Source: Parcubacteria group bacterium GW2011_GWA2_48_9
GTDB taxonomy: Bacteria > Patescibacteriota > Patescibacteriia > UBA10025
Direction: 5' to 3'
NCBI GenBank assembly: GCA_001003705.1
Contig: LCPQ01000001.1
Location: 58,008 to 122,007, forward strand
DNA: 64,000 bases
Shown: piece after piece, positions 51,578-62,762 of the stretch
Numbering within the stretch: the first letter of the stretch is position 1
Layout of the letters: the number at the start of each line of letters is the position of its first letter
The notes under the pieces: generated by a model
What the model saw: only the letters and a program-made list of their open reading frames with translations
What the model was told of the DNA's origin: nothing
Database searches by the model: none
Position numbers and translations under genes: made by a program

Positions 51578-52363
51578 CTAAGTAAGCGATTCTATTAACT
51601 TACCGATAAAGAAAGCTACCGATGACGCTATAACGCCGACGAGGAGCATCTCTGCGCCAGACCGTAACCACGACTTCTGGTTTAATCTTGACCGGAATGC
51701 ACCTGCCACAAAGAGGGTTGCCCCAGATAAAACAATTGAGAGAGTAAATTTGCCGTCCTTGACTAGCGGAAAAATAAACGGTATGAGTGGAGCCAGCCCG
51801 GCAATAAGGAACGAAATGAACGTCGCCAGGGCATGTCGTGCCGGTGAACCGTCCCCCTCATCAACGATCCCCAAATGCTCTCGCATCATGAGCCTCAACC
51901 ATCCTTGCTGATTCGAGCTCACTACTTCAACTGCCCTCTCGAGATCCGCGCCGCTAAAGCCGTATTTGGAGAGAATTTCGTTTGTCTCATCAATTTCCCG
52001 TTCACGGTGGTGCCTCAGCTCCCACGCTTCGCGTTCCTTCTGCGCATTTTGGTAGCCCTGCTCCGACTTTTTACCGAGATAGTTTCCCAGCGCCATCGAA
52101 ACACCGTCAGCCATCAGGTTTGCAAACCCTAGAATTAGAACTATCGTTGGCGAAAGGCCACCCCCGATCGATCCAGCAACTATGGCAAACGTAGTAACAA
52201 TGCCGTCACTTGCGCCAAAAACAGCGTCACCAATATACCTACCTCCGGTACGTTGATGAAAAGATTCTTCCAGTTCCTGCATGGAAAATCTCCCCTTGCG
52301 ACGAAGGTCCTGTTCTGTTTTCGCGTACTCACGCGATAGCACTTTTTCTTGCTCGAAATCCAT
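51578..52363 (-). CDS. VIT1/CCC1-family putative iron/manganese transporter
   Basis: An N-terminal cytoplasmic helical region precedes the VIT membrane domain (…GASDGIVTTFAIVAGSIGG…). The start was moved to the internal MDFEQEK…. Confidence 0.7.
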   Translation of the reverse strand: MDFEQEKVLSREYAKTEQDLRRKGRFSMQELEESFHQRTGGRYIGDAVFGASDGIVTTFAIVAGSIGGGLSPTIVLILGFANLMADGVSMALGNYLGKKSEQGYQNAQKEREAWELRHHREREIDETNEILSKYGFSGADLERAVEVVSSNQQGWLRLMMREHLGIVDEGDGSPARHALATFISFLIAGLAPLIPFIFPLVKDGKFTLSIVLSGATLFVAGAFRSRLNQKSWLRSGAEMLLVGVIASSVAFFIGKLIESLT

Positions 52364-52367
52364 TTTG

Positions 52368-53159
52368 TTAAGATGAAAGAAACTTATAAATACGGCTGTA
52401 GTGTCGTGTAAGAAATTCAGTGGACATGAGTGAATGTTCCTTGCCGCGCAACAGAACATAGGTGCAACCAATCTTTTTTGCGAAATGTTTGCCCGGCAGA
52501 TACGGCACGATCGGGTCATTTTTTTCATGCATGATCATGACCTTTTTTCCAGCTACCTTTGACGCATGCGCTACGGGATTATAAAACACTCCATTATACA
52601 GTTTTTTCACGTCGTGTTTCGAACAGCGATACCCTTCCCCGAAACTTTCTTTCGTAAGGCGGTAGAGCCAGTTAGCGGGCTCAGACTTCTTTTGTGCATT
52701 CCAGTCTACCACAGGGGCGAGGGCAAGGACTTTTGTTACAGACGGGTGGGTTGATGCTAATAGAGCTGCCGGACCGCCGAAGCTCGTGCCAATAAGGTAC
52801 ACCGAGCGGGGTTTTATTCTATACCTCCTACCGCTTATGGTATCCTTAAAACCCTTTTTTATGCCCTTAATAACGTCGAGAATGTCTAGGTGTGGTGATT
52901 TCCTTAAAAATTCACCCTTGCTTTCCCATGTGCCACGGTAGCGTGGGTGAAACGCCCAATATCCCTTTTTTGAAAGGAACTCAAGCTCATCTCGCTTGTT
53001 TGGTACTGTGGGCATACCTTGGCAAAGAATGATCACCTTATGTGACCTTCTTACTGGCGGTAAAAATTCTGCAACAATATCTTTTGCGAACCGCGTACGA
53101 AGTGGCCTCATAGATGTAGTATAATAAAAAAAGTGGTCACTGAGAACGTTTTGTGACAA
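52368..53159 (-). CDS. Alpha/beta-fold hydrolase
   Basis: Nucleophile elbow …LIGTSFGGPAA… and a C-terminal …MIMHEKNDPIVPY… acid/His region. Confidence 0.7.
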   Translation of the reverse strand: MSQNVLSDHFFYYTTSMRPLRTRFAKDIVAEFLPPVRRSHKVIILCQGMPTVPNKRDELEFLSKKGYWAFHPRYRGTWESKGEFLRKSPHLDILDVIKGIKKGFKDTISGRRYRIKPRSVYLIGTSFGGPAALLASTHPSVTKVLALAPVVDWNAQKKSEPANWLYRLTKESFGEGYRCSKHDVKKLYNGVFYNPVAHASKVAGKKVMIMHEKNDPIVPYLPGKHFAKKIGCTYVLLRGKEHSLMSTEFLTRHYSRIYKFLSS

Positions 53160-53874
53160 TAAACTTCGGTAGAGTCACTGCGATGATTACAGCAAACATG
53201 GCAACGGCAAGATATATCAGCCTTACTCCTTCACTTACCTCGAGCAACTTCTGACCGTATGTCGTGAGTATCAAGCCAGTGGATAAAAAGCCAATAGAAA
53301 TGATCTTCAGAAACCTACGAAACGAAATTGTTGAAAGTCCGATAGCGAAGCTTGCAACGTCGACTGGAAAAGCCGGAAGGAGGTACACCAGCCACATCAT
53401 CAGTTCGTTTCTTCCGAGAAAAGCGTCATAGAGGGAGAGTTGCTCCTTTTTTACTAAACGTCCGACTATGGGGCGGCCAAATTTACGTGATATCCAAAAG
53501 GCGAGAGTTGATCCGATCATATTTCCAACCCACGCATAGAGTATACCCGGCCAAACGCCATAGAGAATCCCTAAGGCGATAACTACTACCCCGCCAGGTA
53601 TCGGTGCAATAACCGTTTCGGCGATAATGATGGCCATAACGACAAACGGACCACCGCCCCCGAACTGTGATGTCCAGGTCTCAACTTCATCCCTCCCAGG
53701 AAAGTATTTACCAAAAAAGGCAAAGGCGACCATCATAAGAAGAAAGAACCCTATGATGGCAACATCCGTACGCCAAAGTGCACGGTTACGTTTAAATGCG
53801 TTAGCAAAATTATGTAAAACACCCATGTGTCTATTGTAGCATGAGTCACCGTTCTTGAGATTAAGCAAAAGCAC
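53137..53874 (-). CDS. DedA/TVP38-family membrane protein
   Basis: 245 aa with about 5–6 TM segments and the DedA-like re-entrant region. The true start is probably the internal Met near 53826. Confidence 0.7.
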   Translation of the reverse strand: MLLLNLKNGDSCYNRHMGVLHNFANAFKRNRALWRTDVAIIGFFLLMMVAFAFFGKYFPGRDEVETWTSQFGGGGPFVVMAIIIAETVIAPIPGGVVVIALGILYGVWPGILYAWVGNMIGSTLAFWISRKFGRPIVGRLVKKEQLSLYDAFLGRNELMMWLVYLLPAFPVDVASFAIGLSTISFRRFLKIISIGFLSTGLILTTYGQKLLEVSEGVRLIYLAVAMFAVIIAVTLPKFIVTKRSQ

Positions 53875-53946
53875 AAGGGGGCGCCACCTATCGGTGACAC
53901 CCCCACGTACGCGTGCAAGGTTGTAGTAAGATTACTTCTTCAGCTA

Positions 53947-54738
53947 CTACTTTGCCAGCTCAGCATCAATAACCGAGGCAAACTGTTCGTACGGTACCGC
54001 TCCTGAGACGAGCGTCCCATTGACGAAGGTCGCGGGTGTTCCCTGTACGCCGTATTGGGTTCCTTGAGTTGTGTCGTCCTGTACTTTTGACTGGTATTTG
54101 CCTGAGTCGAGACAACCATCAAACTGGCTCTGGTTCAACCCGAGGCCCCCGGCAGCACTCTTAAAGTTTTCTATGCTTAACGTGCCGGCCGCATTCATCT
54201 CAAAAAGCTTATCATGCATCTCCCAAAACTTACCTTGCTCTGCCGCGCATTCAGAGGCCTCTGCAGCCTTCTGCGCCAAGGGATGAAGTGATGTCAAGGG
54301 AAAGTGCCGATAGATAAGCCGTACATCATCTCCATATGTGTCGAGAATCCGCTGCGTAGTTGGATTAACCTGTTCACAGAATGGGCACTGAAAATCTGAA
54401 TATTCCACTAATGTGACTTTCGCGTTTTCACCGCCGCGAATATAATCATCGTCGCGAATAGGAATGTCGACCACTGTTGGAGCAGCTGTGGGCGCAGCGG
54501 CAGTCGGGGCAGTATTTGTTGGGGCAACAGTGTTTGTAGTCGTCCCTGCAACTTTCCCGGTGTTTGAATTCTTAGAACCTACGCTGCCTCCCGTCCGAAG
54601 CATGGAGAAAGTCAGCATAAAACCTATGAAACTGATTGCGGCTATCCCTGAAACAAGTCCGAAGTAGAAGGTCATTTTCGATGAACCCTGGAATAAACCT
54701 TGTTCCGATTCTTGTGGCTGCGTACGTTCATGGTCCAT
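53947..54738 (-). CDS. DsbA-like thioredoxin-fold oxidoreductase with N-terminal TM anchor and a Thr/Ala-rich linker
   Basis: CxxC active site …DFQCPFCEQ… in a DsbA-type domain. It has its own promoter carrying a TACTAC-N5-GTAGTA operator. Confidence 0.8.
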   Translation of the reverse strand: MDHERTQPQESEQGLFQGSSKMTFYFGLVSGIAAISFIGFMLTFSMLRTGGSVGSKNSNTGKVAGTTTNTVAPTNTAPTAAAPTAAPTVVDIPIRDDDYIRGGENAKVTLVEYSDFQCPFCEQVNPTTQRILDTYGDDVRLIYRHFPLTSLHPLAQKAAEASECAAEQGKFWEMHDKLFEMNAAGTLSIENFKSAAGGLGLNQSQFDGCLDSGKYQSKVQDDTTQGTQYGVQGTPATFVNGTLVSGAVPYEQFASVIDAELAK

Positions 54739-54787
54739 ATTGGCATGCCTGAGGTTAATGGGTAAGATTAGGTAAATACTAAATATC

Positions 54788-54823
54788 TACTACACATTGT
54801 AGTAGAACTGTAGGATCAGTCAA
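54788..54823 (-). promoter_or_regulatory. Promoter of the DsbA-like gene with overlapping BlaI/CopY-type operator
   Basis: Minus strand reads TTGACT, a 16-nt spacer, then TACAAT. The perfect inverted repeat TACTAC-acatt-GTAGTA at 54788-54804 overlaps the -10. The core TACAnnnTGTA resembles BlaI/MecI/CopY boxes. Confidence 0.55.
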
Positions 54824-54845
54824 GAAAGTTATACACACCCTAAAA

Positions 54846-57053
54846 TTATTTCCATCTCTTAAGAAGAAGGGAGTTTGCGACCACGGATACACTTGAGAGA
54901 GCCATAGCCGCACCGGCAATCTCAGGACGGAGTTGCCATCCAAAAATAGGGTAGAAAATTCCGGCAGCAATGGGAATCCCGGCAATATTGTAGATGAGCG
55001 CCCAAAAAAGGTTCTGAACTATCTTTCGGAAGGTTCTTCGTGAAAGTGTGATGGCATGGACAACGTCGCGAAGATCGTTCTTGACCAGCACGATTTGCCC
55101 GGTCTCGAGGGCCACATCTGTCCCCGACCCAATGGCGATCCCAAGATCTGCTGTCGCAAGCGCCGGAGCGTCGTTGATGCCATCGCCGACGAAAGCAACT
55201 CTTTTTCCCCGTCCCTGCAGCTTCTTCACTTCATTTGCTTTGTCTTCCGGGAGGACTTCCGCGAGAATATAGCTGATGCCGATTTGTCCGGCTACCGCAT
55301 TGGCGGTGCGCTGGTTATCTCCTGTAATCATGGCAGTATGAATACCGAGCTTTTCAAGACTGCTGATCGCATCCGAAGCGTTGTCTTTCACCGTGTCGGC
55401 CACAGCAATCAATCCTGCCGCAGCATTTCCGATCCCGATGATCATGACGGTCTTGCCTTCATGCTCGAGACGTTCGAGGTCAGCATCAAGCTGCATAATA
55501 TCGATATGCTCTCGATCGAAGAGTCGCCGGTTTCCTAGCATCACCCTCTGGCCGTCAATGTTGCCGACTACCCCATGGCCCGGTACTGCAGTAAAGTACT
55601 CGACCTCAGATAGGGTAAGCGCATCCTGTGCGGCGCGTGTAACGATCGCTTCTGCCAAAGGATGTTCTGATCGCTTCTCGACTGATGCAGCATACATCAA
55701 TAGTGTGTGTTCATCTACCCCAGATGCCGTCACAATATTAGTCACGACTGGCTTGCCATTCGTCAATGTACCGGTCTTGTCGAACATAACAATATCGATC
55801 CTCCGCGCAGCTTCAAGCGCCTCGCCTCCTTTAATTAAAATACCCTTGGAGGCGCCTATGCCCGTGCCGGTGATGATTGCAGTGGGTGTAGCAAGGCCAA
55901 GGGCACAGGGGCAGGCGATAACCAAAACTGCGACAAATGCGAGCAAGCTTGGGACAAAAGGTTGGAGCGCAATAAAGTACCACGCAATAAACGTGATAAG
56001 TGCAATAGCAATGACGGCGGGAACAAAGTACGCCGAAACTCTGTCAGCAAACCGTTGAATGGGCGCTTTAGACGCTTGAGCATCTTCGACAAGTTTAATG
56101 ATGCCTGCAAGTAACGTGTCTTTACCAACTTTTGTGGCCTTAAAAATGAATGTTCCGTGTTTGTTGATCGTCCCGCCTATGACAACAGATTCAACGATCT
56201 TTTCGGTGGGGATGCTCTCACCTGTTACCATTGATTCATCAACTGATGAGGCTCCTTCTTCGACGACGCCGTCAACGGGGATTTTTGTACCAGGCTTGAC
56301 GCGAATTCGGTCACCGACGACAACATCGTTCAGGGAAATCTCAATCTCGCTGTTCCCACGAACCACGATAGCTGTCTTCGGGGCCAAGCCCATCAGCTTT
56401 TTGATCGCTTCTCCTGTTTTGCCCTTTGCCCGCGCTTCGAGCCATTTACCCAACAGAACAAACGCGATGAGAATACTGCCGATCTCAAAGTATACTTCTC
56501 CCGCCACAAGGCCGAGGACTACGATGATCGAATACACATACGCAGTTGATGTACCAATCGCAATGAGAGAATCCATGTTAGCCGTTCGGGCTTTCAGAGC
56601 GCCCCAGAAACCCCGATAAAATTGCCATCCCGCCCAAAACTGTATTGGCGTAGCAAAGAGAAACTGCAGCCATTCGCGATACGGAACGCTTTCAATAACT
56701 GGAAAAACTCGCATGCCCATGCTCAATACAAGGACAGGAAGTGAGAGCGCCACGCTTATGGCGAATTTACTTTTCAACTTTCGTATTTCATTCCTCCGGC
56801 TTTCTTCCTCACTTTGGCGAGATTCGTCGTTTTCCTTCAGCTCTTTCGCCCCATAGCCTACGGCTTCGACTCCTTTTACAAGGGCGCTGATGTTGGTAAT
56901 GGAAGAATCATACACCACATGCGCTCGTTCCGTACCGTAATTCACTGAGGTTTGCTGGACACCACTGACACGTTTCAACCCACGTTCAATTAGCTGAGCG
57001 CAGCTTGCGCAATGCATTCCAGATACTGACAATAGTACGTTCTGATCGGCCAT
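54846..57053 (-). CDS. copA: Copper-translocating P1B-type ATPase
   Basis: N-terminal HMA domain (…GMHCASCAQLIE…), TM CPC motif (…IACPCALGLATP…), DKTGTLT phosphorylation site and GDGINDAP hinge. Confidence 0.95.
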   Translation of the reverse strand: MADQNVLLSVSGMHCASCAQLIERGLKRVSGVQQTSVNYGTERAHVVYDSSITNISALVKGVEAVGYGAKELKENDESRQSEEESRRNEIRKLKSKFAISVALSLPVLVLSMGMRVFPVIESVPYREWLQFLFATPIQFWAGWQFYRGFWGALKARTANMDSLIAIGTSTAYVYSIIVVLGLVAGEVYFEIGSILIAFVLLGKWLEARAKGKTGEAIKKLMGLAPKTAIVVRGNSEIEISLNDVVVGDRIRVKPGTKIPVDGVVEEGASSVDESMVTGESIPTEKIVESVVIGGTINKHGTFIFKATKVGKDTLLAGIIKLVEDAQASKAPIQRFADRVSAYFVPAVIAIALITFIAWYFIALQPFVPSLLAFVAVLVIACPCALGLATPTAIITGTGIGASKGILIKGGEALEAARRIDIVMFDKTGTLTNGKPVVTNIVTASGVDEHTLLMYAASVEKRSEHPLAEAIVTRAAQDALTLSEVEYFTAVPGHGVVGNIDGQRVMLGNRRLFDREHIDIMQLDADLERLEHEGKTVMIIGIGNAAAGLIAVADTVKDNASDAISSLEKLGIHTAMITGDNQRTANAVAGQIGISYILAEVLPEDKANEVKKLQGRGKRVAFVGDGINDAPALATADLGIAIGSGTDVALETGQIVLVKNDLRDVVHAITLSRRTFRKIVQNLFWALIYNIAGIPIAAGIFYPIFGWQLRPEIAGAAMALSSVSVVANSLLLKRWK

Positions 57054-57077
57054 AAAGAATATGCAGTAAGCTAATCG

Positions 57078-57449
57078 TTATTCGACCACAATCTTCCCCT
57101 GATACATCCCCATATCGCATGTAAAAGGGATTTCCCCTGTTTCGGTAGGAGTAAACTCAACATCAGTCATGCCAAATGCCTTGAGATCCTTCCGAATCTT
57201 CATCCCCTCAAAGGTAACATACCGCGAACAATCCGCATGTTCTTGGCGGTTAAAGTGAAGGCGTACGGGAATCCCCGCTTTTACCGTAATGATGTTTGGA
57301 TCGTATGCCCCTTTTACTAAGATGGTGATTTCTTGTACACCGCTATTCATTTCCGCTTTTTCCTGCTTCCTTTGGAACCGGAGCCAAAGAAAAAAAATTC
57401 CGAAAATACCCGCTGTAAGGACGATGCCGATAACTTGACGTGAATCCAT
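57078..57449 (-). CDS. Small membrane-anchored cupredoxin-like protein
   Basis: 123 aa with an N-terminal TM segment. The C-terminal domain ends …FTCDMGMYQGKIVVE, a Cupredoxin_1-like CxxGMxxGxI motif. It is a paralogue of the next gene. Confidence 0.55.
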   Translation of the reverse strand: MDSRQVIGIVLTAGIFGIFFLWLRFQRKQEKAEMNSGVQEITILVKGAYDPNIITVKAGIPVRLHFNRQEHADCSRYVTFEGMKIRKDLKAFGMTDVEFTPTETGEIPFTCDMGMYQGKIVVE

Positions 57450-57492
57450 GGCCGTCTTATGAAACTATAATCAACCTTCGCATGTTCAGGTG

Positions 57493-57930
57493 TTAAATGA
57501 CATTAATCGTACCCCGAAACATCCCCATAGAGCATTGAAAAACAATGGAACCCTTCTCCTGTGCAACGAATTCAACCGTATCTTCTCCTGTTGTTTGTAG
57601 ATTCTTAGTTATTCCAAGCTTTGGAATTGTGAACGACCGCGCGCATCCGTAGGTATTGTTTGTCACTAATTTCATTCGTACCCTCTGTCCTTGCTTAACA
57701 GTCACTTGGGAGGGAGAATATCCATTTGAAGCAACGTTGATGGTTACAGAGTCGGAAACGACGTCAACATCTTGATCTGTATCCCCCTGGTCTACGGTGG
57801 CATCTGCATTCAGGCCGCTCCCTAACCTCCACGCTATTCCGCCGCCGATGACGATGACCAGGCCGACAATAATCATTATATTAGTAAAAGACTTACTATC
57901 ATCCGACTGTTTGCTATTTTGTCGTTTCAT
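57493..57930 (-). CDS. Small membrane-anchored cupredoxin-like protein (paralogue)
   Basis: 145 aa with an N-terminal TM segment, ending …FQCSMGMFRGTINVI. It has the same architecture as 57078..57449. Confidence 0.55.
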   Translation of the reverse strand: MKRQNSKQSDDSKSFTNIMIIVGLVIVIGGGIAWRLGSGLNADATVDQGDTDQDVDVVSDSVTINVASNGYSPSQVTVKQGQRVRMKLVTNNTYGCARSFTIPKLGITKNLQTTGEDTVEFVAQEKGSIVFQCSMGMFRGTINVI

Positions 57931-57952
57931 ACTATAAGTACAAAATTAATTA

Positions 57953-58708
57953 TTACTTACTAAACCAGGATTCCGGCTGAAAATCATTGAGCGCACGGTT
58001 GATATACACATTTGTCAAATACAGTTGATTCGTTATCATGAGAACTCCAATCAGCATCAAGAGTGCTGCGCTGACCATCGTGACCATTCTATGGTGCTTT
58101 TTAATAAACTGAGTGGCTTCGATTATTCTGCTGTAAAAAAGGGTAAACGTGAGAAGGGCAACTGCAAGACCAAGCGAGTAGAGGCTGAAATACGCGATAC
58201 CGCTGCCAATATTCCCTGTCTGACTTACCAGCGCTACGACACCGAGGAGAAAGGGACCGATGCATGGAGTCCAGACAAAAGCGAACGTGGCACCAAAAAA
58301 CAGGTTTCCGATAAACGTGCGCTGGTGTGGCTTCCAGTGAATCCGAGCTTCGCCGTTCATCCAGCGGAGAAATGATAGCGGATAAACAAAATTGAGTCCA
58401 AGGAGAAATACTACAGCCCCAGCAACTACTGCTATGATCTCCCGTGCGCTACCAATCGCCTCCGCAGCAACACCGATAAGCGCACCCAATGGAATAAAGA
58501 TAAGAAAAAATCCGAGAACGAAACCAGTGGCATTTGAAAGAATTTGGCGGCGGAAAGTATGACTGTCATCGGTAGTTCGCAATTCCTCGGTACTCAACCC
58601 AGTAATGGTGGTGAGATACGCGGGGAGCAAAACGACGACGCAGGGAGAAATGATTGAAAGAACACCGTAGAAAAACGAAAAGAAAAATGGTATAGTGCTA
58701 ATATCCAT
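57953..58708 (-). CDS. ccdA: CcdA/DsbD-family thiol-disulfide transporter (membrane electron-transfer protein)
   Basis: 251 aa with 6+ TM segments and conserved Cys in TM1 (…LSIISPCVVVLLPAYL…) and TM4 (…WTPCIGPFL…). Confidence 0.8.
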   Translation of the reverse strand: MDISTIPFFFSFFYGVLSIISPCVVVLLPAYLTTITGLSTEELRTTDDSHTFRRQILSNATGFVLGFFLIFIPLGALIGVAAEAIGSAREIIAVVAGAVVFLLGLNFVYPLSFLRWMNGEARIHWKPHQRTFIGNLFFGATFAFVWTPCIGPFLLGVVALVSQTGNIGSGIAYFSLYSLGLAVALLTFTLFYSRIIEATQFIKKHHRMVTMVSAALLMLIGVLMITNQLYLTNVYINRALNDFQPESWFSK

Positions 58709-58711
58709 GCG

Positions 58712-58960
58712 CTAGGAAACTAGTTCACGTGCCTCATATCCTGTCTTTCTGATTTGGTCAAAAATCTTCTCTCTCGTAATCTTTCCGGGGTCGAAGACAA
58801 TCTCGCCAGTGTTGTGCTGTTCGTTGATTTTCACCACTACGCCAATATCCTCGAGGTCCATGGTTATGAGCCGGCTACAAGATGCACAATGCATACCTGA
58901 AATAGTAATGTTCATTGTCTCCATATCATCTATTGCAAAAACACCGATCTCGGTCCCCAA
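58712..58960 (-). CDS. copZ: Heavy-metal-associated copper chaperone (CopZ-like)
   Basis: 82 aa with GMHCASC metal-binding motif and an HMA ferredoxin-like fold. Confidence 0.8.
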   Translation of the reverse strand: MGTEIGVFAIDDMETMNITISGMHCASCSRLITMDLEDIGVVVKINEQHNTGEIVFDPGKITREKIFDQIRKTGYEARELVS

Positions 58961-59883
58961 ACCATAAGGAGTATCCCGGCAAGCACGACAGCAAAATTCA
59001 GTAAAGTATACGGCCAGAATCCATACGGGCGTACTTCCTGGCGCCCGTGTTTATGTTCCTTATATACCAGATAACTCATCCCAGCCAAAATCATCAGCGT
59101 CGCGACAAAAAAGATAGGCAGAAATATGGTGAGACGATCGGAGAACATCATCACCGCTGTCATTGCCCCCATAGTACCCCCCATCAAACCAGCCATCATA
59201 CCTTCCATGATACCCATAATTCCACAGCAGGCACCTACCCATCCGCCTACGCCCATACCTATGATCATGCCAAAAACCGATCCAACAAACATGCCATTAG
59301 TAGTTCCAATGACAATACCAAGGAGTAATCCGGAAATCATTCCGATAGTCATACCGATCATCATACCTGTCATACAAGACACGGCTCCGCGAAAAGCGCG
59401 CAAGTGCCTGATTGCCCCGCCGGTAGCCACCACGGCAATTATGAGATAACCGATATACTGACCGTAGTTTCCCCAGAATGATTCAACATTCCAGAAGAAA
59501 ACGAAGTAAGTAAAATATGCGAGAGCTGCGACAACCACAAGTGTCCCCAGAGTGGATTTAATCACATTCTTTTCAAATGTGTACGCGGCTGGATCTTTGA
59601 AAAAAGATTGTTTGACGCGTCGCACTCGCTCGGACAATGATTCCCCACTGTCCCGGTCTTGCACAGACGTCTCAGACGCACTATAACCGACATTGGCGAT
59701 AGCTTCACGTACCTTTGAGAAGGGTACAATTGCCGGGTCATAACGAAGCTCAACGCGCTCACTTGTATACCGAATATCCTCCACCTCAACACCTATCCGC
59801 CCGAGAGCTTTTGTAATAGTTTTCTCACATGCATCGCAATGCATCCCCTGTATCCAAATGTCTTTGACGATTGTTTCGGTCAT
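58930..59883 (-). CDS. HMA-domain protein fused to a Met/Gly-rich polytopic membrane domain
   Basis: N-terminal HMA domain (…IQGMHCDACEKTI…), then several TM helices packed with MxxxM/GxxxG patterns (…MIGMTIGMISGLLLGIVIG…FGMIIGMGVGGWVGACCGIMGIMEGMMAGLMGG…). Confidence 0.6.
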   Translation of the reverse strand: MTETIVKDIWIQGMHCDACEKTITKALGRIGVEVEDIRYTSERVELRYDPAIVPFSKVREAIANVGYSASETSVQDRDSGESLSERVRRVKQSFFKDPAAYTFEKNVIKSTLGTLVVVAALAYFTYFVFFWNVESFWGNYGQYIGYLIIAVVATGGAIRHLRAFRGAVSCMTGMMIGMTIGMISGLLLGIVIGTTNGMFVGSVFGMIIGMGVGGWVGACCGIMGIMEGMMAGLMGGTMGAMTAVMMFSDRLTIFLPIFFVATLMILAGMSYLVYKEHKHGRQEVRPYGFWPYTLLNFAVVLAGILLMVWGPRSVFLQ

Positions 59884-59894
59884 AGTTATTAAGT

Positions 59895-60938
59895 TTATTG
59901 AGCTTTTGACTGCACTTCCTCGCAGGTCGTCGCATGCCCCGAGGGGTCTGTTATGCATGTCTTATTTTCGGGCATATTTAAAAGAAGCTGCGGAATAATC
60001 CCTGGACATACGGTCGACTGGGACATAAGATGCGCCGCCGTACCATCGACCGGCATTTGTGGGGCAGCAGAGATGGAGTGGGAAAAAACTATTGAACCCA
60101 TAAAAAACAACAGAGCTACAAGTGGGATAATGACAGCGACCCGCGTATGTGGGTAAAACTGTCTATTAATAATTCGCTCAATACGGTCATTAATAGCGGA
60201 AAAAGCGGGGATGGTGGCTGGAATCATTGTTTCACGGACTTTCAACGCCTTTACGAGCGCCCTACCCAGAAAATGATCCGTGCCCTGTTGTCGAATAGCT
60301 GCTTCATCAGCAGAAATTTCCAATAACGTTTTAATATATTCAGCGAACTTCGCGATCCCAGGGATAAACCAGAATACCTTTGTAAAAAAATGTACAATGA
60401 GAAGTCGGCTAGTGTCCCGCTTTATGCAATGGTGTTCTTCATGCAGAAGAACTCCGAGAAGTTCGCCATCGTTGAGCATTTCTATCATACCCCTACTGAT
60501 ATAGATAGTCGGGTGCGAAAAACCGGCACTTACAACGTAAGAACGGGAATCATCAATTTCAAGGACTGGAAATCCTACCCGTTCAGTAATTTTCTGAAGT
60601 CTCATGCTCATGTTCTTACTAGTTTTAGAGCGGAGTGAACGAATATAATTTGCAGTCCGGATAAACGTCACAGCTAGTAAAATAACCGCCACGAAGAAAA
60701 ACACACTTACTGCACCCAACAGGGCAATATTGATTGAGCTCAATACGACGTCTTTGCCCGTCAATCCCGCTATAAGCTGGCTGCAGGCATGAACGAATTC
60801 AGCAAGTACAACACCAACAAACCCTGAAATATGAGGGATAAGGTTAAGTGCGAGCACGAGAGCGCCTAAGACAAGCCCAAGGCCGCTTAATGCAAAAAGA
60901 GAGAACTGCCGACCGCTTGTTTGATCAGATACGTTCAT
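59895..60938 (-). CDS. M56-family (BlaR1/MecR1-like) membrane zinc metalloprotease signal transducer lacking a PBP sensor domain
   Basis: N-terminal polytopic domain with HExxH (…LLHEEHHCIKRD…). The C-terminal roughly 100 aa is extracytoplasmic and His/Met/Cys-containing (…HLMSQSTVCPGIIP…KTCITDPSGHATTCEEV…), with no transpeptidase-like motifs. Confidence 0.8.
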   Translation of the reverse strand: MNVSDQTSGRQFSLFALSGLGLVLGALVLALNLIPHISGFVGVVLAEFVHACSQLIAGLTGKDVVLSSINIALLGAVSVFFFVAVILLAVTFIRTANYIRSLRSKTSKNMSMRLQKITERVGFPVLEIDDSRSYVVSAGFSHPTIYISRGMIEMLNDGELLGVLLHEEHHCIKRDTSRLLIVHFFTKVFWFIPGIAKFAEYIKTLLEISADEAAIRQQGTDHFLGRALVKALKVRETMIPATIPAFSAINDRIERIINRQFYPHTRVAVIIPLVALLFFMGSIVFSHSISAAPQMPVDGTAAHLMSQSTVCPGIIPQLLLNMPENKTCITDPSGHATTCEEVQSKAQ

Positions 60939-61317
60939 TGCTTTTCTCCCTAATTTTCTTTTCGAGAAGCTCGAGTTTTTTCGGGTCTACCTTATCAAGC
61001 GTCTTGACAAACTCAGCGATGGCCACATCACCACACTCGGATATAAGCTTCTTGATGATATCGCCGGAAGCACGAGAAAAAAAAGATTCGCGTTTTTGCG
61101 CCGCTGAGTACTCAAAAGCGCCAGTGTGATCCTTTCGATTCAAGAGTCGCTTCTCCGCGAGGCGGTACATAACCGTCATAACGGTGGTATATGCTATGTG
61201 TCGCTTCTTCCGAAGAATTTTCACAACATCGCGCACCGTAACGGTACCCCGCTCCCAGATAATTTCCATAATTTGTTTTTCAAGCTCTCCGAGTAGGTAG
61301 AATGAGTGTTTTGTCAT
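60925..61317 (-). CDS. BlaI/MecI/CopY-family winged-helix repressor (without C-terminal CxC metal cluster)
   Basis: 130 aa (…LGELEKQIMEIIWERGTVTVRDVV…AYTTVMTVMYRLAEKRLL…) is the penicillinase-repressor fold. The C-terminus is a coiled coil with no CxCxxxxCxC motif. Confidence 0.85.
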   Translation of the reverse strand: MTKHSFYLLGELEKQIMEIIWERGTVTVRDVVKILRKKRHIAYTTVMTVMYRLAEKRLLNRKDHTGAFEYSAAQKRESFFSRASGDIIKKLISECGDVAIAEFVKTLDKVDPKKLELLEKKIREKSNERI

Positions 61318-61336
61318 AACTAGGGTGGATAATCTC

Positions 61337-61373
61337 TACTACGAAATGTAGTATCTCTGAATAAAGGTGTCAA
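61337..61373 (-). promoter_or_regulatory. Promoter of the copY-like operon with overlapping BlaI/CopY-type operator
   Basis: Minus strand reads TTGACA, a 17-nt spacer, then TACATT. The inverted repeat TACTAC-gaaat-GTAGTA at 61337-61353 overlaps the -10. Arrangement and arms are the same as at 54788-54804. Confidence 0.55.
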
Positions 61374-61425: not shown

Positions 61426-61881
61426 TCAGGTCCCTACCGGTTCATGCTGAATACGTCGATATGCTGTGACGTTCGTGATCAAGATGCCAAGATAAAAAAG
61501 CAACCCATATACGCAAGCGGGTAAACCGGTAAAGGTAAGTTTGAGAATCCAAACCTCGTACACAATTAGAGTTGATGAAAAAAGTGTTCCAACGACACCG
61601 AGAATAATTAGCGCTTTGATCATGCTCTTCTTCGGTTTTCCCGCTAATGCTGCGGCTGACAGGAGAAATACCGTGAAGAACATTGCAAAACCGTATACAC
61701 AGGTGGGTAAACCGAAAATAAGTACCTTAGCTGGACCGCCGCACGAAACTAACCAATTCAAAGGACCTTGGTGACAACTAGGACCGATAAGATTCCAATA
61801 AGTTAAATACCCCGAGAGTAAACTCCCGGCAAATGCAAAAGTGAGGCTGACGATAGCTAGTTTACGATTACTTGTCATCAT
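61426..61881 (-). CDS. Small polytopic membrane protein with internally duplicated GLPxCVYG motifs and a Cys-rich loop
   Basis: 151 aa with 4 TM segments. Loop …IGPSCHQGPLNWLVSCGGP…. Two halves each contain GLP(T/A)CVYG(F/L) at a helix start. It lies downstream of arsR–YHS in the same orientation. Confidence 0.4.
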   Translation of the reverse strand: MMTSNRKLAIVSLTFAFAGSLLSGYLTYWNLIGPSCHQGPLNWLVSCGGPAKVLIFGLPTCVYGFAMFFTVFLLSAAALAGKPKKSMIKALIILGVVGTLFSSTLIVYEVWILKLTFTGLPACVYGLLFYLGILITNVTAYRRIQHEPVGT

Positions 61882-61910: not shown

Positions 61911-62387
61911 CTAAATATACCGGACAGCCCGTTTTTCAAATGCAGTTTTACAGCCAGAGGCGCAAAAGTAATATTCGCTCCGCTTATACCAAGAAGATAG
62001 AACAGCAGTCTCAGGAGAGAGTTTCATGCCGCATACAGGATCAATAACGCGCGGTATAGCAGCTTTTTGGCTTATTCGGCTCCATGGTTGAGACTTTTTC
62101 TGGTCAACGAGAATTCCGTGGATGGCATCAAAGGCTTTTGCCACATTATGATGTGCCAGGCAGTACGTCATTTCACGTCCCTCTCGCTTAGGAAGAACCA
62201 GGCGTTCTTGCCGCAACACCTGCAAATGCTGGCTGACGTTTGATTGCGCCATTCCGGTCATTCGCTGTATATCGGTTACCGTCAACGAATGGCTGCGCAA
62301 AAGCTGTATAATTTCCAGGCGTTTGGGGTTGGCAAGCGCTTGAAAAATGCCGCTGTCTTGTTTAAATGCGTCGTTATACATATTCAA
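61911..62387 (-). CDS. ArsR/SmtB-family transcriptional regulator fused to a C-terminal YHS/TRASH metal-binding domain
   Basis: HTH …LANPKRLEIIQLLRSHSLTVTDIQRMTGMAQSNVSQHLQVLR…. C-terminal …DPVCGMKL…YYFCASGCKTAF… is the YHS/TRASH Cys signature. Confidence 0.75.
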   Translation of the reverse strand: MNMYNDAFKQDSGIFQALANPKRLEIIQLLRSHSLTVTDIQRMTGMAQSNVSQHLQVLRQERLVLPKREGREMTYCLAHHNVAKAFDAIHGILVDQKKSQPWSRISQKAAIPRVIDPVCGMKLSPETAVLSSWYKRSEYYFCASGCKTAFEKRAVRYI

Positions 62388-62422: not shown

Positions 62423-62629
62423 CACGCGGTTATCCACAGCTACATCAACAACAAAAACCGTATACATACGTACGGACGTCAATAAGTTTATTTAATGTAC
62501 CTCTTCCTCCAGAACTCGGATTCGGTTCTGGGCGCCACGCACGCTCGCGGCTTCGAATCCAAGCTGCGTTACCAAAAAACCTTATCATCTTGCACAATGT
62601 TTGCTTGATTAACCTCGTCTATTCCCTTT

Positions 62630-62700
62630 CTCCGGGACTTGGATTCGAACCAAGATACCAGGCTTCAAAGGCCTGTGTCCTACCATTAGACGATCCCGGA
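62630..62700 (-). tRNA. tRNA-Gln (anticodon UUG)
   Basis: Folded by hand. Acceptor UCCGGGA/UCCCGGA with the U1-A72 pair typical of bacterial tRNA-Gln. D-arm GUCU-AAUGGUA-GGAC. Anticodon arm CAGGC-CUUUGAA-GCCUG. T-arm CUUGG-UUCGAAU-CCAAG. Discriminator G. No encoded CCA. Confidence 0.8.
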
Positions 62701-62762
62701 ATACACTAAAACAACTGGCCTATGCACGCACAGTATACGGATTCAGCTATACAGTGTAAAGA

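What the first reader, a model, noticed from the sequence alone, without database searches (positions are those of the whole stretch)
53947..61373. Copper-efflux / extracytoplasmic thiol-redox island under a BlaI–BlaR1-type (M56 protease) regulatory pair, with two identical TACTAC-N5-GTAGTA operators
Nine co-directional minus-strand genes are packed with gaps of 0–45 nt: a BlaI/CopY-family repressor, an M56 BlaR1-like protease, an HMA/Met-rich membrane protein, copZ, ccdA, two cupredoxin-like proteins and copA. A DsbA-like oxidoreductase follows with its own promoter. Both promoters (61337-61373 and 54788-54823) have the same build: TTGAC(A/T), a 16–17-nt spacer, TACA(T/A)T, and a perfect inverted repeat TACTAC-N5-GTAGTA laid over the -10. 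The core resembles the TACAnnTGTA boxes bound by CopY/BlaI/MecI. The gene content (DsbD-like CcdA, DsbA-like, copper chaperones, P1B ATPase) recalls the Scs (suppressor of copper sensitivity) logic, here joined to efflux. A protease-gated control of copper efflux through a BlaI/BlaR1-type pair, instead of direct Cu(I) sensing by CopY, is not the textbook CopY mechanism.
Basis: partly seen in the sequence, partly recalled or inferred. Interest (0 to 1): 0.7.

Follow-up and report, generated by a model that had tools for sequence, protein, structure and literature searches.

The report
Protease-gated copper-export and thiol-redox regulon
An uncultivated (Parcubacteria-like) bacterium appears to switch on its copper-export and disulfide-repair genes with a repressor and membrane-protease pair of the kind known from penicillin resistance, rewired with a small cysteine-rich outer sensor; this wiring recurs in many metagenomes and I found no paper describing it.

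Summary
TACTAC-N5-GTAGTA occurs exactly twice in 64 kb (54788-54804 and 61337-61353). Each copy overlaps the -10 of a TTGAC-type promoter. All nine gene assignments were confirmed.

The repressor is BlaI-family without CopY's Cys motif. The M56 protease keeps its catalytic residues, lacks a beta-lactam sensor, and ends in a ~60-aa outside tail with three invariant cysteines.

- The two "cupredoxins" are CupA-type Cu(I) chaperones.
- The operator spacing matches PetR's GAC-N5-GTC, not the cop box.
- The island extends upstream to VKOR-like and ArsR-YHS genes.

Comparative evidence is strong. The same operon and operator recur in relatives whose M56 is 40-65% identical, and the operator recurs in a 27%-identical sister clade. 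A metagenome scan found the promoter-operator in front of DsbA-like, HMA-DsbD-CupA, DUF305 and BlaI genes.

Best reading: extracytoplasmic copper, or copper-driven thiol stress, activates the protease. It cleaves the repressor and derepresses copper export plus thiol-redox repair. The inducer and the cleavage are inferred.

The nearest precedent is cyanobacterial PetR/PetP, which does not control copper efflux. Verdict: new variant of a known kind. A conserved Met/Cys-rich membrane protein of unknown fold is a bonus.

The parts
61911..62387 (-). ArsR-family HTH fused to a YHS (TRASH-like) metal-binding domain. It is a second candidate metal regulator with its own strong promoter (62422-62395). 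It borders the island and its membership is uncertain.
   Evidence: Pfam HTH_5 8.2e-14 and YHS 2.2e-10. Promoter scan gives 11 of 12 with a TG.
61426..61881 (-). VKOR-like membrane protein, a possible DsbB-type partner of the DsbA-like protein. It lacks a canonical CXXC.
   Evidence: Pfam VKOR 31.7 bits against a 27.5 cutoff. Sequence.
61337..61373 (-). Promoter and operator 1. The -35 TTGACA is at 61373-61368, the -10 TACATT at 61350-61345, and the operator TACTAC-N5-GTAGTA at 61337-61353 overlaps the -10.
   Evidence: The same architecture lies upstream of blaI in L001, L003, L004, L022 and L023.
60925..61317 (-). BlaI-family winged-helix repressor, 130 aa. Recognition helix A42-L53 (AYTTVMTVMYRL). 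Single Cys95. E102|F103 aligns with the S. aureus BlaI N101|F102 cleavage site. No CxCx4CxC.
   Evidence: Pfam Penicillinase_R 95 bits. Best PDB match is M. tuberculosis BlaI, 2G9W. Alignment. CopY_TcrY model below cutoff.
59895..60938 (-). M56 membrane zinc metalloprotease, 347 aa, translationally coupled to the repressor gene by a 14-nt overlap. TM helices 13-31, 41-59 and 71-89. Cytoplasmic protease domain with H166-E-x-x-H170, E207-x3-D211 and R252. TM helix 267-285.
   Evidence: Pfam Peptidase_M56 58.6 bits. Invariant columns. Topology. Foldseek hits to BlaR1 (8EXS, 8EXQ) and ZMPSTE24, E about 1e-4.
59898..60083 (-). Extracytoplasmic C-terminal tail of the M56 protease (residues 286-347) with invariant C311, C328 and C339. 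It occupies the position of BlaR1's penicillin-binding sensor domain and is the candidate sensor.
   Evidence: Of 30 M56 partners at operator loci, 23 have 3-4 Cys in a 24-60 aa tail.
58930..59883 (-). HMA domain (CDAC) fused to a 7-helix Met/Gly/Cys-rich membrane domain that no Pfam or NCBIfam model covers. Candidate Cu(I) conduit or membrane Cu buffer. The ORF extends to 59958, but homologs start at M26.
   Evidence: AF2 model pLDDT 89.9. No PDB relative for the membrane part. Always next to CopZ, CupA and CopA in DPANN archaea.
58712..58915 (-). CopZ-type HMA copper chaperone. The ORF extends to 58960.
   Evidence: Pfam HMA. NCBIfam CopZ models. L002 calls a 67-aa product.
57953..58708 (-). 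CcdA/DsbD-type transmembrane thiol-disulfide electron transporter. The two membrane Cys lie in SPC and TPC motifs.
   Evidence: Pfam DsbD_TM 54 bits. Sequence. Fused to HMA and CupA domains in other lineages.
57493..57930 (-). CupA-like Cu(I)-binding cupredoxin 1, membrane-anchored. Positive residues precede the TM helix, so the domain is predicted to face outside. The C...CxMxM motif is kept.
   Evidence: Pfam Cupredoxin_1. PDB CupA 2MRY/4F2E, E = 6e-5. Topology.
57078..57449 (-). CupA-like Cu(I) chaperone 2, membrane-anchored. Positive residues follow the TM helix, so the domain is predicted to be cytoplasmic. The C...CxMxM motif is kept.
   Evidence: PDB CupA 2MRY/4F2E, E = 1.4e-15; CopA N-terminal domain 4F2F, E = 2.2e-10..
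54846..57053 (-). P1B-1 type Cu(I)-exporting ATPase CopA, with an N-terminal HMA domain, CPC, YN and MALSS motifs.
   Evidence: Pfam. TIGR01511, 636 bits against a 397 cutoff. Motifs read from the sequence.
54788..54823 (-). Promoter and operator 2. The -35 TTGACT is at 54823-54818, the -10 TACAAT at 54801-54796, and the operator is at 54788-54804.
   Evidence: The homologous site lies upstream of dsbA in L001, L002, L003 and L004.
53947..54738 (-). Membrane-anchored DsbA-like thiol-disulfide oxidoreductase (CPFC) with a low-complexity linker.
   Evidence: Pfam Thioredoxin_4 97.6 bits and DSBA 92.2 bits. DsbA-like genes are the commonest gene after this operator in metagenomes (13 of 83 sites).
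53877..53904 (-). Intrinsic terminator closing the dsbA transcription unit. The stem has 12 bp, 9 of them G-C, followed by a T-rich tail.

Best explanation
This is an autoregulated copper-stress regulon made of two transcription units.

Unit 1 (61373 to 54846, minus strand) encodes a BlaI-family repressor, an M56 membrane protease, an HMA-fused Met/Cys-rich membrane protein, CopZ, CcdA, two CupA-type Cu(I) chaperones and the Cu(I)-ATPase CopA. Unit 2 encodes a membrane-anchored DsbA-like oxidoreductase.

In the resting state a repressor dimer sits on TACTAC-N5-GTAGTA and covers the -10 of both promoters. The protease has BlaR1 topology, but a ~60-residue extracytoplasmic tail with three invariant cysteines replaces the penicillin-binding sensor.

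When copper appears outside the cell, this tail is occupied or oxidised. The trigger could be Cu(I), Ag(I), or thiol oxidation caused by copper. The signal crosses the membrane and the cytoplasmic zinc site cleaves the repressor in its dimerisation helix, at the position equivalent to E102|F103. Both promoters then fire.

The products capture cytoplasmic Cu(I) (CopZ, the inward-facing CupA, the HMA domain) and pump it out (CopA). CcdA carries reducing power to extracytoplasmic cysteines, namely the outward-facing CupA and the DsbA-like protein, to keep them functional and to repair copper-induced mis-oxidised disulfides.

What is shown: the gene identities, the operator, its position over the -10, its conservation, the intact catalytic residues, the topology by hydropathy, and the linkage to copper and thiol genes.

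What is inferred: repressor binding, cleavage by the protease, the identity of the inducer, and the direction of electron and copper flow.
For: Operator. It is exact and unique in the window and lies over predicted -10 boxes.

Unbiased conservation. These loci were found through protein homology, not through the DNA motif:
- L001 (M56 65% identical) has sites before blaI, before dsbA, and before a third thiol-redox operon.
- L003 (44%) has the same three sites.
- L004 (40%) has two sites, one with a single mismatch.
- L002 (91%) has one site.
- The sister-clade loci L022 and L023 (about 27%) have five sites.

The half-sites are constant while the N5 spacer varies. A TTGAC box lies 13-15 nt upstream at 15 of 16 sites.

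Gene order. It is conserved in L001, L003 and L004. BlaI-M56-CcdA-CopA clusters also occur in Chloroflexota (L006) and Actinomycetota (L015, L016).

Metagenome scan with the promoter-operator pattern:
- 36 of 80 loci carry BlaI/M56.
- The first downstream genes are DsbA-like (13), HMA-DsbD_2-CupA or DsbD_2-CupA fusions (10), BlaI (6), DUF305 (3) and CsoR-like (1).
- L087 reads BlaI-M56-[operator]-HMA/DsbD_2/CupA fusion-CupA-CopA.

Protease. HEXXH, EXXXD and an Arg are invariant, as the PvmSR preprint describes for BlaR1-type proteases. A short Cys-rich tail is present in 23 of 30 partner proteases.

Repressor. There is no CopY motif. The Phe at the BlaI cleavage position is conserved. The recognition helix is shared with M. 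tuberculosis BlaI.

Precedent. PetP degrades PetR only when copper is added, including in E. coli extracts.
Against: - There are no expression or biochemical data. The inducer is unknown.
- DsbA-like genes are the commonest operator target. In the sister clade the pair sits with DsbA, thioredoxin and DUF1573 genes, while CopA there has its own CsoR (L022). The primary signal could therefore be thiol or redox stress rather than copper.
- The two Met residues proposed as copper ligands in PetP's TM2-TM3 loop are absent here. The loop 60-70 has no Met.
- The AF2 model of the protease is poor (pLDDT 60; tail below 40), so there is no structural support for a metal site.
- A second candidate metal regulator, ArsR-YHS, lies two genes upstream.
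- The promoter model assumes sigma-70-like recognition in a CPR bacterium.
Confidence: 0.6

Rival explanations
1. The pair senses extracytoplasmic thiol-disulfide (envelope redox) stress rather than copper itself. Oxidation or reduction of the cysteines in the protease's outer tail is the trigger. Copper export genes are passengers in a regulon whose core job is oxidative protein folding and repair.
For: - DsbA-like genes are the most frequent first gene after the operator (13 of 83 sites).
- The third operon in L001 and L003 encodes a Redoxin/TlpA-like protein and DsbD-like proteins.
- The sister loci L022, L023 and L026 link BlaI-M56 to DsbA, thioredoxin, DUF1573 and rhodanese genes. In L022, CopA has its own CsoR.
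- The tail is Cys-rich and lacks Met.
Against: - Many loci place the operator directly before HMA-DsbD_2-CupA-CopA operons, DUF305 genes or a CsoR-like gene.
- In the window family, eight of the nine controlled genes sit in one operon ending in CopA.
- The only characterised sensor-less BlaR homolog with a known signal, PetP, responds to copper.
- Copper and thiol stress are chemically coupled, so the two readings overlap.
Confidence: 0.25
2. The repressor senses Cu(I) directly, as CopY does, through Cys95 (one per protomer, two per dimer) or other ligands. The M56 protease only removes released repressor, or has an unrelated role.
For: - The best NCBIfam hit of the repressor is CopY_TcrY (1.9e-14).
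- Cys95 ('SECG') is conserved in the four CPR loci that carry this exact copper operon.
- CopYs with reduced Cys motifs are mentioned in the literature.
Against: - The score of 54 is far below the 121.95 cutoff, and there is no CxC motif.
- Cys95 is Phe or Tyr in other repressors that use the same operator, including those next to copper genes (L006, L015, L087).
- The protease gene is translationally coupled to the repressor gene in every locus and keeps all catalytic residues.
- PetR DNA binding is unaffected by copper.
Confidence: 0.08
3. It is a canonical antibiotic or cell-wall sensing BlaI/BlaR1 system that merely happens to lie next to copper genes.
For: Family membership of both proteins, Penicillinase_R and Peptidase_M56.
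Against: - There is no penicillin-binding sensor domain. The protein has 347 aa against about 585-600, and scores 26.5 against the 400 cutoff of blaR1_generic.
- No beta-lactamase or PBP follows any operator.
- The operator sits in front of copper and thiol genes in many lineages.
Confidence: 0.02

Closest known systems
PetR/PetP of Synechocystis sp. PCC 6803 (Garcia-Canas et al. 2021; bioRxiv 10.1101/2020.07.31.226407)
   Same: - A BlaI/CopY-family regulator without the CopY Cys motif, encoded next to a short M56/M48 membrane protease that lacks the beta-lactam sensor domain.
- The operator is an inverted repeat with 5-nt spacing (GAC-N5-GTC against TAC-N5-GTA) placed between or over the promoter boxes.
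- Copper-dependent degradation of the regulator is demonstrated for PetP.
   Different: - PetRP controls only petE, petJ and two small genes (the plastocyanin/cytochrome c6 switch), not copper homeostasis. A 2023 review states this explicitly.
- PetP's proposed ligands are two Met in the TM2-TM3 loop, and it has no C-terminal outer domain. Here that loop has no Met and there is a Cys3 outer tail.
- The regulon here is copper efflux plus thiol-redox genes.
- Orthology with PetP could not be tested because no PetP sequence was available.
BlaI/BlaR1 and MecI/MecR1 of Staphylococcus aureus
   Same: - Repressor plus M56 membrane zinc protease.
- Same topology, with three TM helices, a cytoplasmic HEXXH domain, a fourth TM helix and an outside C-terminus.
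- Autoregulated operon, operator over the promoter, and a conserved Phe at the repressor cleavage position.
   Different: - No penicillin-binding sensor domain.
- The recognition helix differs (AYTTVM against SDKTIR).
- The operator differs (TACTAC-N5-GTAGTA against TACA/TGTA repeats).
- The regulon has no beta-lactamase or PBP2a.
Sensor-less BlaI/BlaR pairs: M. tuberculosis Rv1846c/Rv1845c, M. abscessus BlaRI, C. difficile CenIR, P. aeruginosa PvmSR
   Same: - Short M56 proteases without the beta-lactam sensor, and an unknown signal.
- The repressor's best solved relative is Rv1846c (2G9W), and the recognition helix is nearly identical.
- From memory, and not verified here, the M. tuberculosis BlaI site is also a TAC(G/T)AC-N5-GT(A/C)GTA-type palindrome.
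   Different: - Those systems control ATP synthase and cell-division, envelope or virulence genes.
- I found none reported to control copper efflux or Dsb genes.
- A Cys-rich outer tail is not described for them in the passages I read.
copY-cupA-copA operon of Streptococcus pneumoniae (and CopY/CopZ/CopA of Enterococcus hirae)
   Same: - Output module: a membrane-anchored CupA cupredoxin-type Cu(I) chaperone with C...CxMxM, plus a P1B-1 CopA.
- The repressor belongs to the same superfamily and is encoded first in the operon.
   Different: - CopY senses Cu(I)/Zn(II) directly through CxCx4CxC and binds the cop box TACAnnTGTA. Both features are absent here.
- S. pneumoniae has no M56 partner, CcdA, DsbA or HMA membrane protein.
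Scs (suppressor of copper sensitivity) and DsbD/CcdA-DsbC/DsbG pathways of Proteobacteria
   Same: The logic of pairing a DsbD-like membrane reductant carrier with DsbA/DsbC-like periplasmic thioredoxin-fold proteins to survive copper.
   Different: - No ScsA-D orthology was shown.
- Scs is not fused to an efflux operon and is not controlled by a BlaI/M56 pair.
- This is a resemblance of function, not of family.

Membership tests
BlaI/MecI/CopY superfamily (Pfam Penicillinase_R) | Winged-helix N-terminal domain plus helical dimerisation domain, with a score above the Pfam gathering threshold | tested here: met
   95.1 bits against 22.6, covering 1-114 of 115 model positions. PDB relatives are 2G9W, 1SD4 and 1OKR.
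CopY/TcrY copper repressors | C-terminal CxCx4CxC (or CxC) metal site | tested here: not met
   The only cysteine is C95 and the C-terminus is ...EKKIREKSNERI.
CopY/TcrY copper repressors | Score above the TIGR02698 equivalog cutoff | tested here: not met
   54 bits against 121.95.
CopY/TcrY copper repressors | cop box TACAnnTGTA in the promoter | tested here: not met
   The promoter sequences contain TACTAC-N5-GTAGTA. No TACAnnTGTA is present in either operator.
BlaR1/MecR1 beta-lactam sensor-transducers | M56 zinc-protease domain with HEXXH, EXXXD and a conserved Arg | tested here: met
   Pfam Peptidase_M56 58.6 bits against 31. H166, E167, H170, E207, D211 and R252 are invariant across 30 sequences. 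Foldseek hits BlaR1, E about 1e-4.
BlaR1/MecR1 beta-lactam sensor-transducers | C-terminal extracellular penicillin-binding (transpeptidase-like) sensor domain | tested here: not met
   The protein has 347 aa and only 62 residues follow the last TM helix. No transpeptidase domain is found. NF000326 scores 26.5 against 400.
PetP-type copper-responsive M56 proteases | Short M56 protease without a sensor domain, encoded next to a BlaI-family regulator | tested here: met
   Description of PetP.
PetP-type copper-responsive M56 proteases | Two conserved Met in the TM2-TM3 loop (proposed copper ligands) | tested here: not met
   The loop 60-70 (TGKDVVLSSIN) has no Met.
PetP-type copper-responsive M56 proteases | Copper-dependent degradation of the cognate regulator | not testable with these tools
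   This needs a biochemical or heterologous assay like those.
PetP-type copper-responsive M56 proteases | Sequence orthology with Slr0241 | not tested
   No PetP sequence could be obtained.
CupA-type Cu(I) chaperones (cupredoxin fold) | Homology to S. pneumoniae CupA, an N-terminal membrane anchor and the C...CxMxM Cu(I) site | tested here: met
   2MRY/4F2E E = 1.4e-15 (57078-57449) and 6e-5 (57493-57930). The Cys and CxMxM columns align. One TM helix in each protein.
P1B-1 Cu(I)/Ag(I) ATPases (CopA) | Score above the TIGR01511 cutoff, plus CPC, YN and MxxSS transmembrane motifs | tested here: met
   636 bits against 397. ACPCALG, LIYNIAGIP and AMALSSVS are read in the translation. Assigning these motifs to subtype P1B-1 rests on established knowledge.
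CcdA/DsbD membrane thiol-disulfide transporters | DsbD_TM domain with one Cys in each of two TM helices | tested here: met
   54 bits against 27.1. ...IISPCVV... and ...VWTPCIGP....
DsbA-like oxidoreductases | Thioredoxin fold with a CxxC active site, and an extracytoplasmic location | tested here: met
   Thioredoxin_4 97.6 bits and DSBA 92.2 bits. CPFC is in the sequence. An N-terminal TM anchor is present.
Scs copper-sensitivity suppressor system | Orthologs of ScsA, ScsB, ScsC and ScsD | not tested
   Only generic DsbD_TM and DsbA-like domains were found. No Scs-specific model was available, so this is treated as an analogy.

The most novel reading that the evidence does not exclude
The short cysteine-rich extracytoplasmic tail of this M56 clade, possibly together with the conserved Cys in TM2, is a previously unrecognised minimal sensor for Cu(I), Ag(I) or thiol stress. 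It converts a BlaR1-type protease into a one-protein transmembrane metal sensor.

The resulting BlaI/M56 circuit would be the main copper-efflux and oxidative-folding regulator across many Patescibacteria (CPR), and in some Chloroflexota and Actinomycetota. That would make it a further class of copper-efflux control beside CueR, CsoR, CopY and the two-component systems.

In the same operon, the HMA-fused Met/Cys-rich seven-helix protein would be a new family of membrane copper conduit shared by CPR bacteria and DPANN archaea.
Probability: 0.35. Interest if true: 0.8.

Novelty: new variant of a known kind. Interest (0 to 1): 0.62.

Why it matters
Copper efflux operons are textbook examples of direct metal sensing by CueR, CsoR, CopY and CusRS/CopRS. 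Here a conserved operator and gene linkage tie a BlaI/BlaR1-type proteolytic switch to copA in several phyla.

Two further points follow.
- Open question. What do the many BlaR1 homologs without a penicillin-binding domain sense (M. tuberculosis BlaR, C. difficile CenR, P. aeruginosa PvmS)? This clade has a clear output (copper and thiol genes), a 17-bp operator and a roughly 25-60-residue Cys-rich candidate sensor. The question could be tested by reconstitution in E. coli, as was done for PetRP.
- CPR biology. This is one of the few regulatory circuits that can be predicted in some detail for uncultivated CPR bacteria. It also flags a widespread, unannotated membrane protein as a likely copper-handling component.

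Tried and rejected
- Word-indexed homolog search with the M56 protein, and again with a 30-sequence profile, returned only 2 and 9 proteins. The exhaustive HMMER search was needed to see the family.
- The AF2 model of the protease, from a 9-sequence alignment, was poor: pLDDT 60 overall and 27-40 in the tail. It was used only for fold assignment and says nothing about a metal site.
- I could not verify the published M. tuberculosis BlaI operator from held papers. It is cited from memory only.
- I could not obtain the PetP sequence or the PNAS paper's supplements, so PetP orthology is untested.
- Horizontal acquisition: GC content is flat across the window and downstream genes are housekeeping, so there is no compositional sign of a mobile island. 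A tRNA-Gln does lie at 62629-62701.
- Rfam found nothing but that tRNA, so no riboswitch is involved.
- Canonical beta-lactam sensing and a CopY-type direct sensor were considered and rejected on tested features (see the membership tests).
- About 36 of the 83 metagenomic pattern hits had no recognisable neighbour. They are probably chance matches or contig ends and were not interpreted.

Full report
**1. Observation**

The 17-mer TACTACNNNNNGTAGTA occurs exactly twice in the 64-kb window, at 54788-54804 and 61337-61353.
- With one mismatch allowed the expectation is 0.06, and no shuffle of 100 reaches two hits.
- Allowing two mismatches adds no further site.

Read on the minus strand, both copies lie inside sigma-70-like promoters that the consensus scan finds on its own: TTGACA-17-TACATT (61373-61345) and TTGACT-16-TACAAT (54823-54796), each 10 of 12. 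The palindrome covers the -10 box in both.

The ATPase passes the copper-ATPase model TIGR01511, 636 bits against a 397 cutoff.

A 12-bp-stem terminator follows dsbA at 53904-53877.

A tRNA-Gln follows at 62629-62701.

GC content is flat and genes further downstream are housekeeping, so nothing marks the region as recently acquired.

**2. The regulator pair**

*The repressor.* It has 130 aa, one cysteine (C95) and no CxCx4CxC.
- It scores 54 bits against the 121.95 cutoff of the CopY/TcrY equivalog.
- Its best solved relative is M. tuberculosis BlaI (2G9W, E = 7.8e-10), ahead of S. aureus BlaI and MecI.
- Its recognition helix, AYTTVMTVMYRL, is nearly identical to that of M. tuberculosis BlaI and of every repressor in the related loci. 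S. aureus BlaI has SDKTIRTLITRL.
- E102|F103 aligns with the S. aureus BlaI N101|F102 cleavage site. That residue assignment rests on established knowledge. The Phe is conserved throughout.

*The protease.* The M56 gene overlaps the repressor gene by 14 nt.
- Hydropathy gives three TM helices, a 177-residue positively charged (cytoplasmic) domain, a fourth TM helix and a 62-residue C-terminal tail that must face outward. This is the BlaR1 topology.
- H166-E-x-x-H170, E207-x3-D211 and R252 are invariant in 30 diverged homologs. A recent preprint lists the same motifs as the BlaR1 active-site signature.
- There is no penicillin-binding domain. NF000326 scores 26.5 against a 400 cutoff.
- The tail carries three invariant cysteines: C311, C328 and C339. 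A further Cys (C52) in TM2 is conserved in all full-length members. Many relatives have a CGC motif at the same place.
- The AF2 model is weak (pLDDT 60). Its core still matches BlaR1 and ZMPSTE24 by Foldseek.

**3. The output genes**

- The two 'cupredoxin-like' proteins are homologs of S. pneumoniae CupA and of the CupA-like N-terminal domain of its CopA (2MRY/4F2E, E = 1.4e-15 and 6e-5). The C...CxMxM Cu(I) site is retained.
- By the positive-inside rule one of them faces the cytoplasm (57078-57449) and the other faces outward (57493-57930). This orientation is an inference.
- CcdA has its two membrane cysteines.
- The DsbA-like protein has CPFC behind a membrane anchor.
- CopA has the CPC, YN and MxxSS motifs of P1B-1 pumps. 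The classification rests on established knowledge.

**4. Comparative genomics**

*The protease family.* The exhaustive HMMER search shows a tight family at 91, 65, 44 and 40% identity. Behind it are 543 short M56 proteins with E below 1e-10.

*Loci found through the protein.* These are unbiased with respect to the DNA motif. They include Parcubacteria and Patescibacteria MAGs.
- They keep the whole operon: BlaI, M56, HMA membrane protein, CopZ, CcdA, CupA, CupA, CopA, then one or two DsbA genes.
- They keep the operator at the homologous promoters:

| Locus | Sites |
|---|---|
| L001 | 9585 (blaI), 16299 (dsbA), 3128 (third operon) |
| L003 | 9578, 16190, 5397 |
| L004 | 9584 (one mismatch), 16158 |
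| L002 | 6132 |

- The third operon encodes a Redoxin/TlpA-like protein, DsbD-like proteins and Cys-rich unknowns.
- The half-sites are constant while the N5 spacer differs from site to site, which is the pattern of a protein-binding footprint.

*The sister clade.* Its M56 is about 27% identical, with a CGC motif and a 3-4-Cys tail. It uses the same operator (L022 at 4097, 7463 and 9075; L023 at 3007 and 4541) next to DsbA, thioredoxin, DUF1573 and rhodanese genes. Across these 16 sites a TTGAC box lies 13-15 nt upstream in 15.

*More distant clusters.* BlaI-M56-CcdA-(thioredoxin)-CopA clusters occur in Chloroflexota (L006) and Actinomycetota (L015, L016), with degenerate TAC-N5-GTA palindromes.

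- Of the 80 loci returned, 36 carry BlaI/M56 homologs.
- The first ORF after the site is:

| First downstream ORF | Sites |
|---|---|
| DsbA-like | 13 |
| HMA-DsbD_2-CupA fusion | 7 |
| DsbD_2-CupA fusion | 3 |
| DsbD_2 or HMA-DsbD_2 | 3 |
| BlaI itself | 6 |
| DUF305 | 3 |
| CsoR-like | 1 |
| Recurring Cys-rich unknown families | about 11 |

- About 36 sites are unclassifiable: chance hits or contig ends.
- L087 reads BlaI-M56-[operator]-HMA/DsbD_2/CupA fusion-CupA-CopA. This fusion ties CcdA-type proteins functionally to CupA and HMA domains.
- Among 30 complete M56 partners from these loci, the outer tail is 24-60 aa long and has 3-4 Cys in 23.

**5. Mechanism**

The best-supported model is a BlaI/BlaR1-type proteolytic switch.
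1. The repressor dimer occludes the -10 of both promoters.
2. An extracytoplasmic signal sensed by the Cys-rich tail activates the cytoplasmic zinc site.
3. The protease cleaves the repressor near E102|F103.
4. The copper-export operon, which includes the regulator genes and so gives feedback, and dsbA are transcribed.

I take copper (Cu(I), perhaps Ag(I)) to be the most likely signal, for three reasons:
- The regulon content.
- The thiolate-rich sensor.
- The only sensor-less BlaR homolog with a known signal, PetP, degrades PetR strictly in the presence of copper, even in E. coli extracts.

A commentary also recalls an unidentified copper-activated protease acting on E. hirae CopY.

The main rival is that the cysteines report envelope thiol-disulfide stress. 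DsbA is the commonest target, and the sister clade lacks CopA linkage (CopA there has CsoR). Copper catalyses non-native disulfides (established knowledge), so the two readings overlap.

Direct Cu(I) sensing by the repressor through Cys95 is unlikely. That Cys is replaced by Phe or Tyr in other repressors with the same operator and copper genes.

**6. Comparison with the literature**

Full-text searches found PetRP as the only copper-responsive BlaI/BlaR pair.
[quoted passage not shown] It adds that the role of BlaR homologs in heterotrophs "remains to be elucidated".
- In the passages I searched, the CopY section of a 2024 metallostasis review lists only direct Cu(I)-sensing CopYs, in Lactococcus, Streptococcus and Enterococcus.
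- Work on sensor-less BlaIR systems (M. tuberculosis, M. abscessus, C. difficile CenIR, P. aeruginosa PvmSR) reports other regulons and unknown signals.
- Further searches combining M56 or BlaR with copA or cop-operon terms found nothing relevant.

Within the held library, a BlaI/M56 pair controlling copper efflux and Dsb genes is therefore undescribed. The principle is known, so I class this as a new variant of a known kind.

**7. Secondary finding**

The HMA-fused membrane protein (58930-59883) belongs to a family of 762 or more proteins. Nearly all are about 305 aa long and come from CPR bacteria and DPANN archaea. No Pfam or NCBIfam model covers the membrane part.
- Its core is strikingly conserved: H185, C195-M, GMMxGMTxGM, ATNG, C244-C245, E252, a ladder of Met and Gly, and D274.
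- AF2 gives a confident seven-helix model (pLDDT 89.9).
- In archaeal contigs it always sits in CopZ-[this protein]-CupA-like-CopA modules under other regulators (ArsR, PadR, MarR/DUF7343).
- It is a good candidate for a new copper-handling membrane protein.

**8. Verdict**

- The inducer and the cleavage are inferred.
- Interest is moderate to high: a conserved, testable circuit in uncultivated lineages, with a candidate ligand-sensing element for orphan BlaR1-type proteases.

Noticed in passing
window 58930-59958 (-); homologs P0158-P0277; loci L027-L033: An HMA-fused seven-helix Met/Gly/Cys-rich membrane protein family with at least 762 members in CPR bacteria and DPANN archaea. It has no Pfam or NCBIfam model and no solved structural relative. 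In archaea it always sits in CopZ-X-CupA-CopA modules. It is a candidate new copper conduit.
   Followed up: partly
window 61911-62387 (-) and 61426-61881 (-): An ArsR-type HTH fused to a YHS/TRASH metal-binding domain, with its own strong promoter (62422-62395). It is followed by a borderline VKOR-like protein that has loop cysteines but single Cys in two 'LP(T/A)CVYG' helices instead of a CXXC. This may be a second metal or redox regulatory unit next to the island. ArsR-YHS-like hits also lie near CopA in L016 and L084.
   Followed up: partly
L087 6589-8091 (-); also L037, L054, L065, L079, L090 (HMA-DsbD_2-CupA), L035/L074/L086 (DsbD_2-CupA), L096 (HMA-DsbD_2): Rosetta-stone fusions that join a cytoplasmic HMA domain, a DsbD_2/CcdA-like membrane domain and a CupA-like cupredoxin in one polypeptide, directly downstream of the operator. 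They imply that CcdA-type proteins work with CupA-type copper sites. One possibility is copper or electron transfer across the membrane.
   Followed up: partly
L003 7475-8095 and 8137-8436; L042 first ORF after 6149; L034/L038/L064/L113 (497 aa); L092 (321 aa): Several operator-controlled proteins of unknown function are Cys-rich (CEFCCG...CGCAHS; RPCCGNSTAFPDCNHG) and end in a conserved ...(Q)VGGC or GGGCG(V/I) C-terminus. No Pfam match. The C-terminal Gly-Gly-Cys tail is unexplained.
   Followed up: no
L049, L076, L112 (first ORF after the operator); L055 6494 (-): DUF305 lipoproteins, and in one case a CsoR-like repressor gene, lie directly behind the same promoter-operator. The second case suggests a BlaI-to-CsoR regulatory cascade in some lineages.
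   Followed up: no
window 60429-60443 (-), M56 residues 166-171: In the window's family and some others (L087, L069, P0008, P0015, P0019) the zinc motif reads HExxHC, with a Cys right after the second zinc-binding His. Most relatives have Leu there. This could be a cytoplasmic Cu(I) or cysteine-switch site on the protease.
   Followed up: no
L022 1388-4050 and 6771-9038: In one sister-clade contig a classical CsoR-CopZ-CopA operon and a DsbA-BlaI-M56 unit lie side by side. TACTAC-N5-GTAGTA sites lie after CopA (4097) and after M56 (9075), each in front of a gene of unknown function.
   Followed up: partly
window 51578-52528 (-), 53137-53874 (-): A VIT1/CCC1-type iron/manganese transporter ORF with a roughly 100-residue N-terminal extension, and a DedA/VTT-family membrane protein, flank the island downstream. 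VIT1 also neighbours the copper module in Nanoarchaeota contigs (L029-L031).
   Followed up: no
L007 9526, L012 2738, L016 3992 and 9273; L008/L009 9239: Actinomycetota (Solirubrobacterales) loci with BlaI-M56 pairs carry TACGAC-N5-GTAGTA or TCCTAC-N5-GTCGTA variants. This fits a clade-wide TAC(N)AC-N5-GT(N)GTA operator that includes mycobacterial BlaI. The genes downstream were not examined.
   Followed up: no
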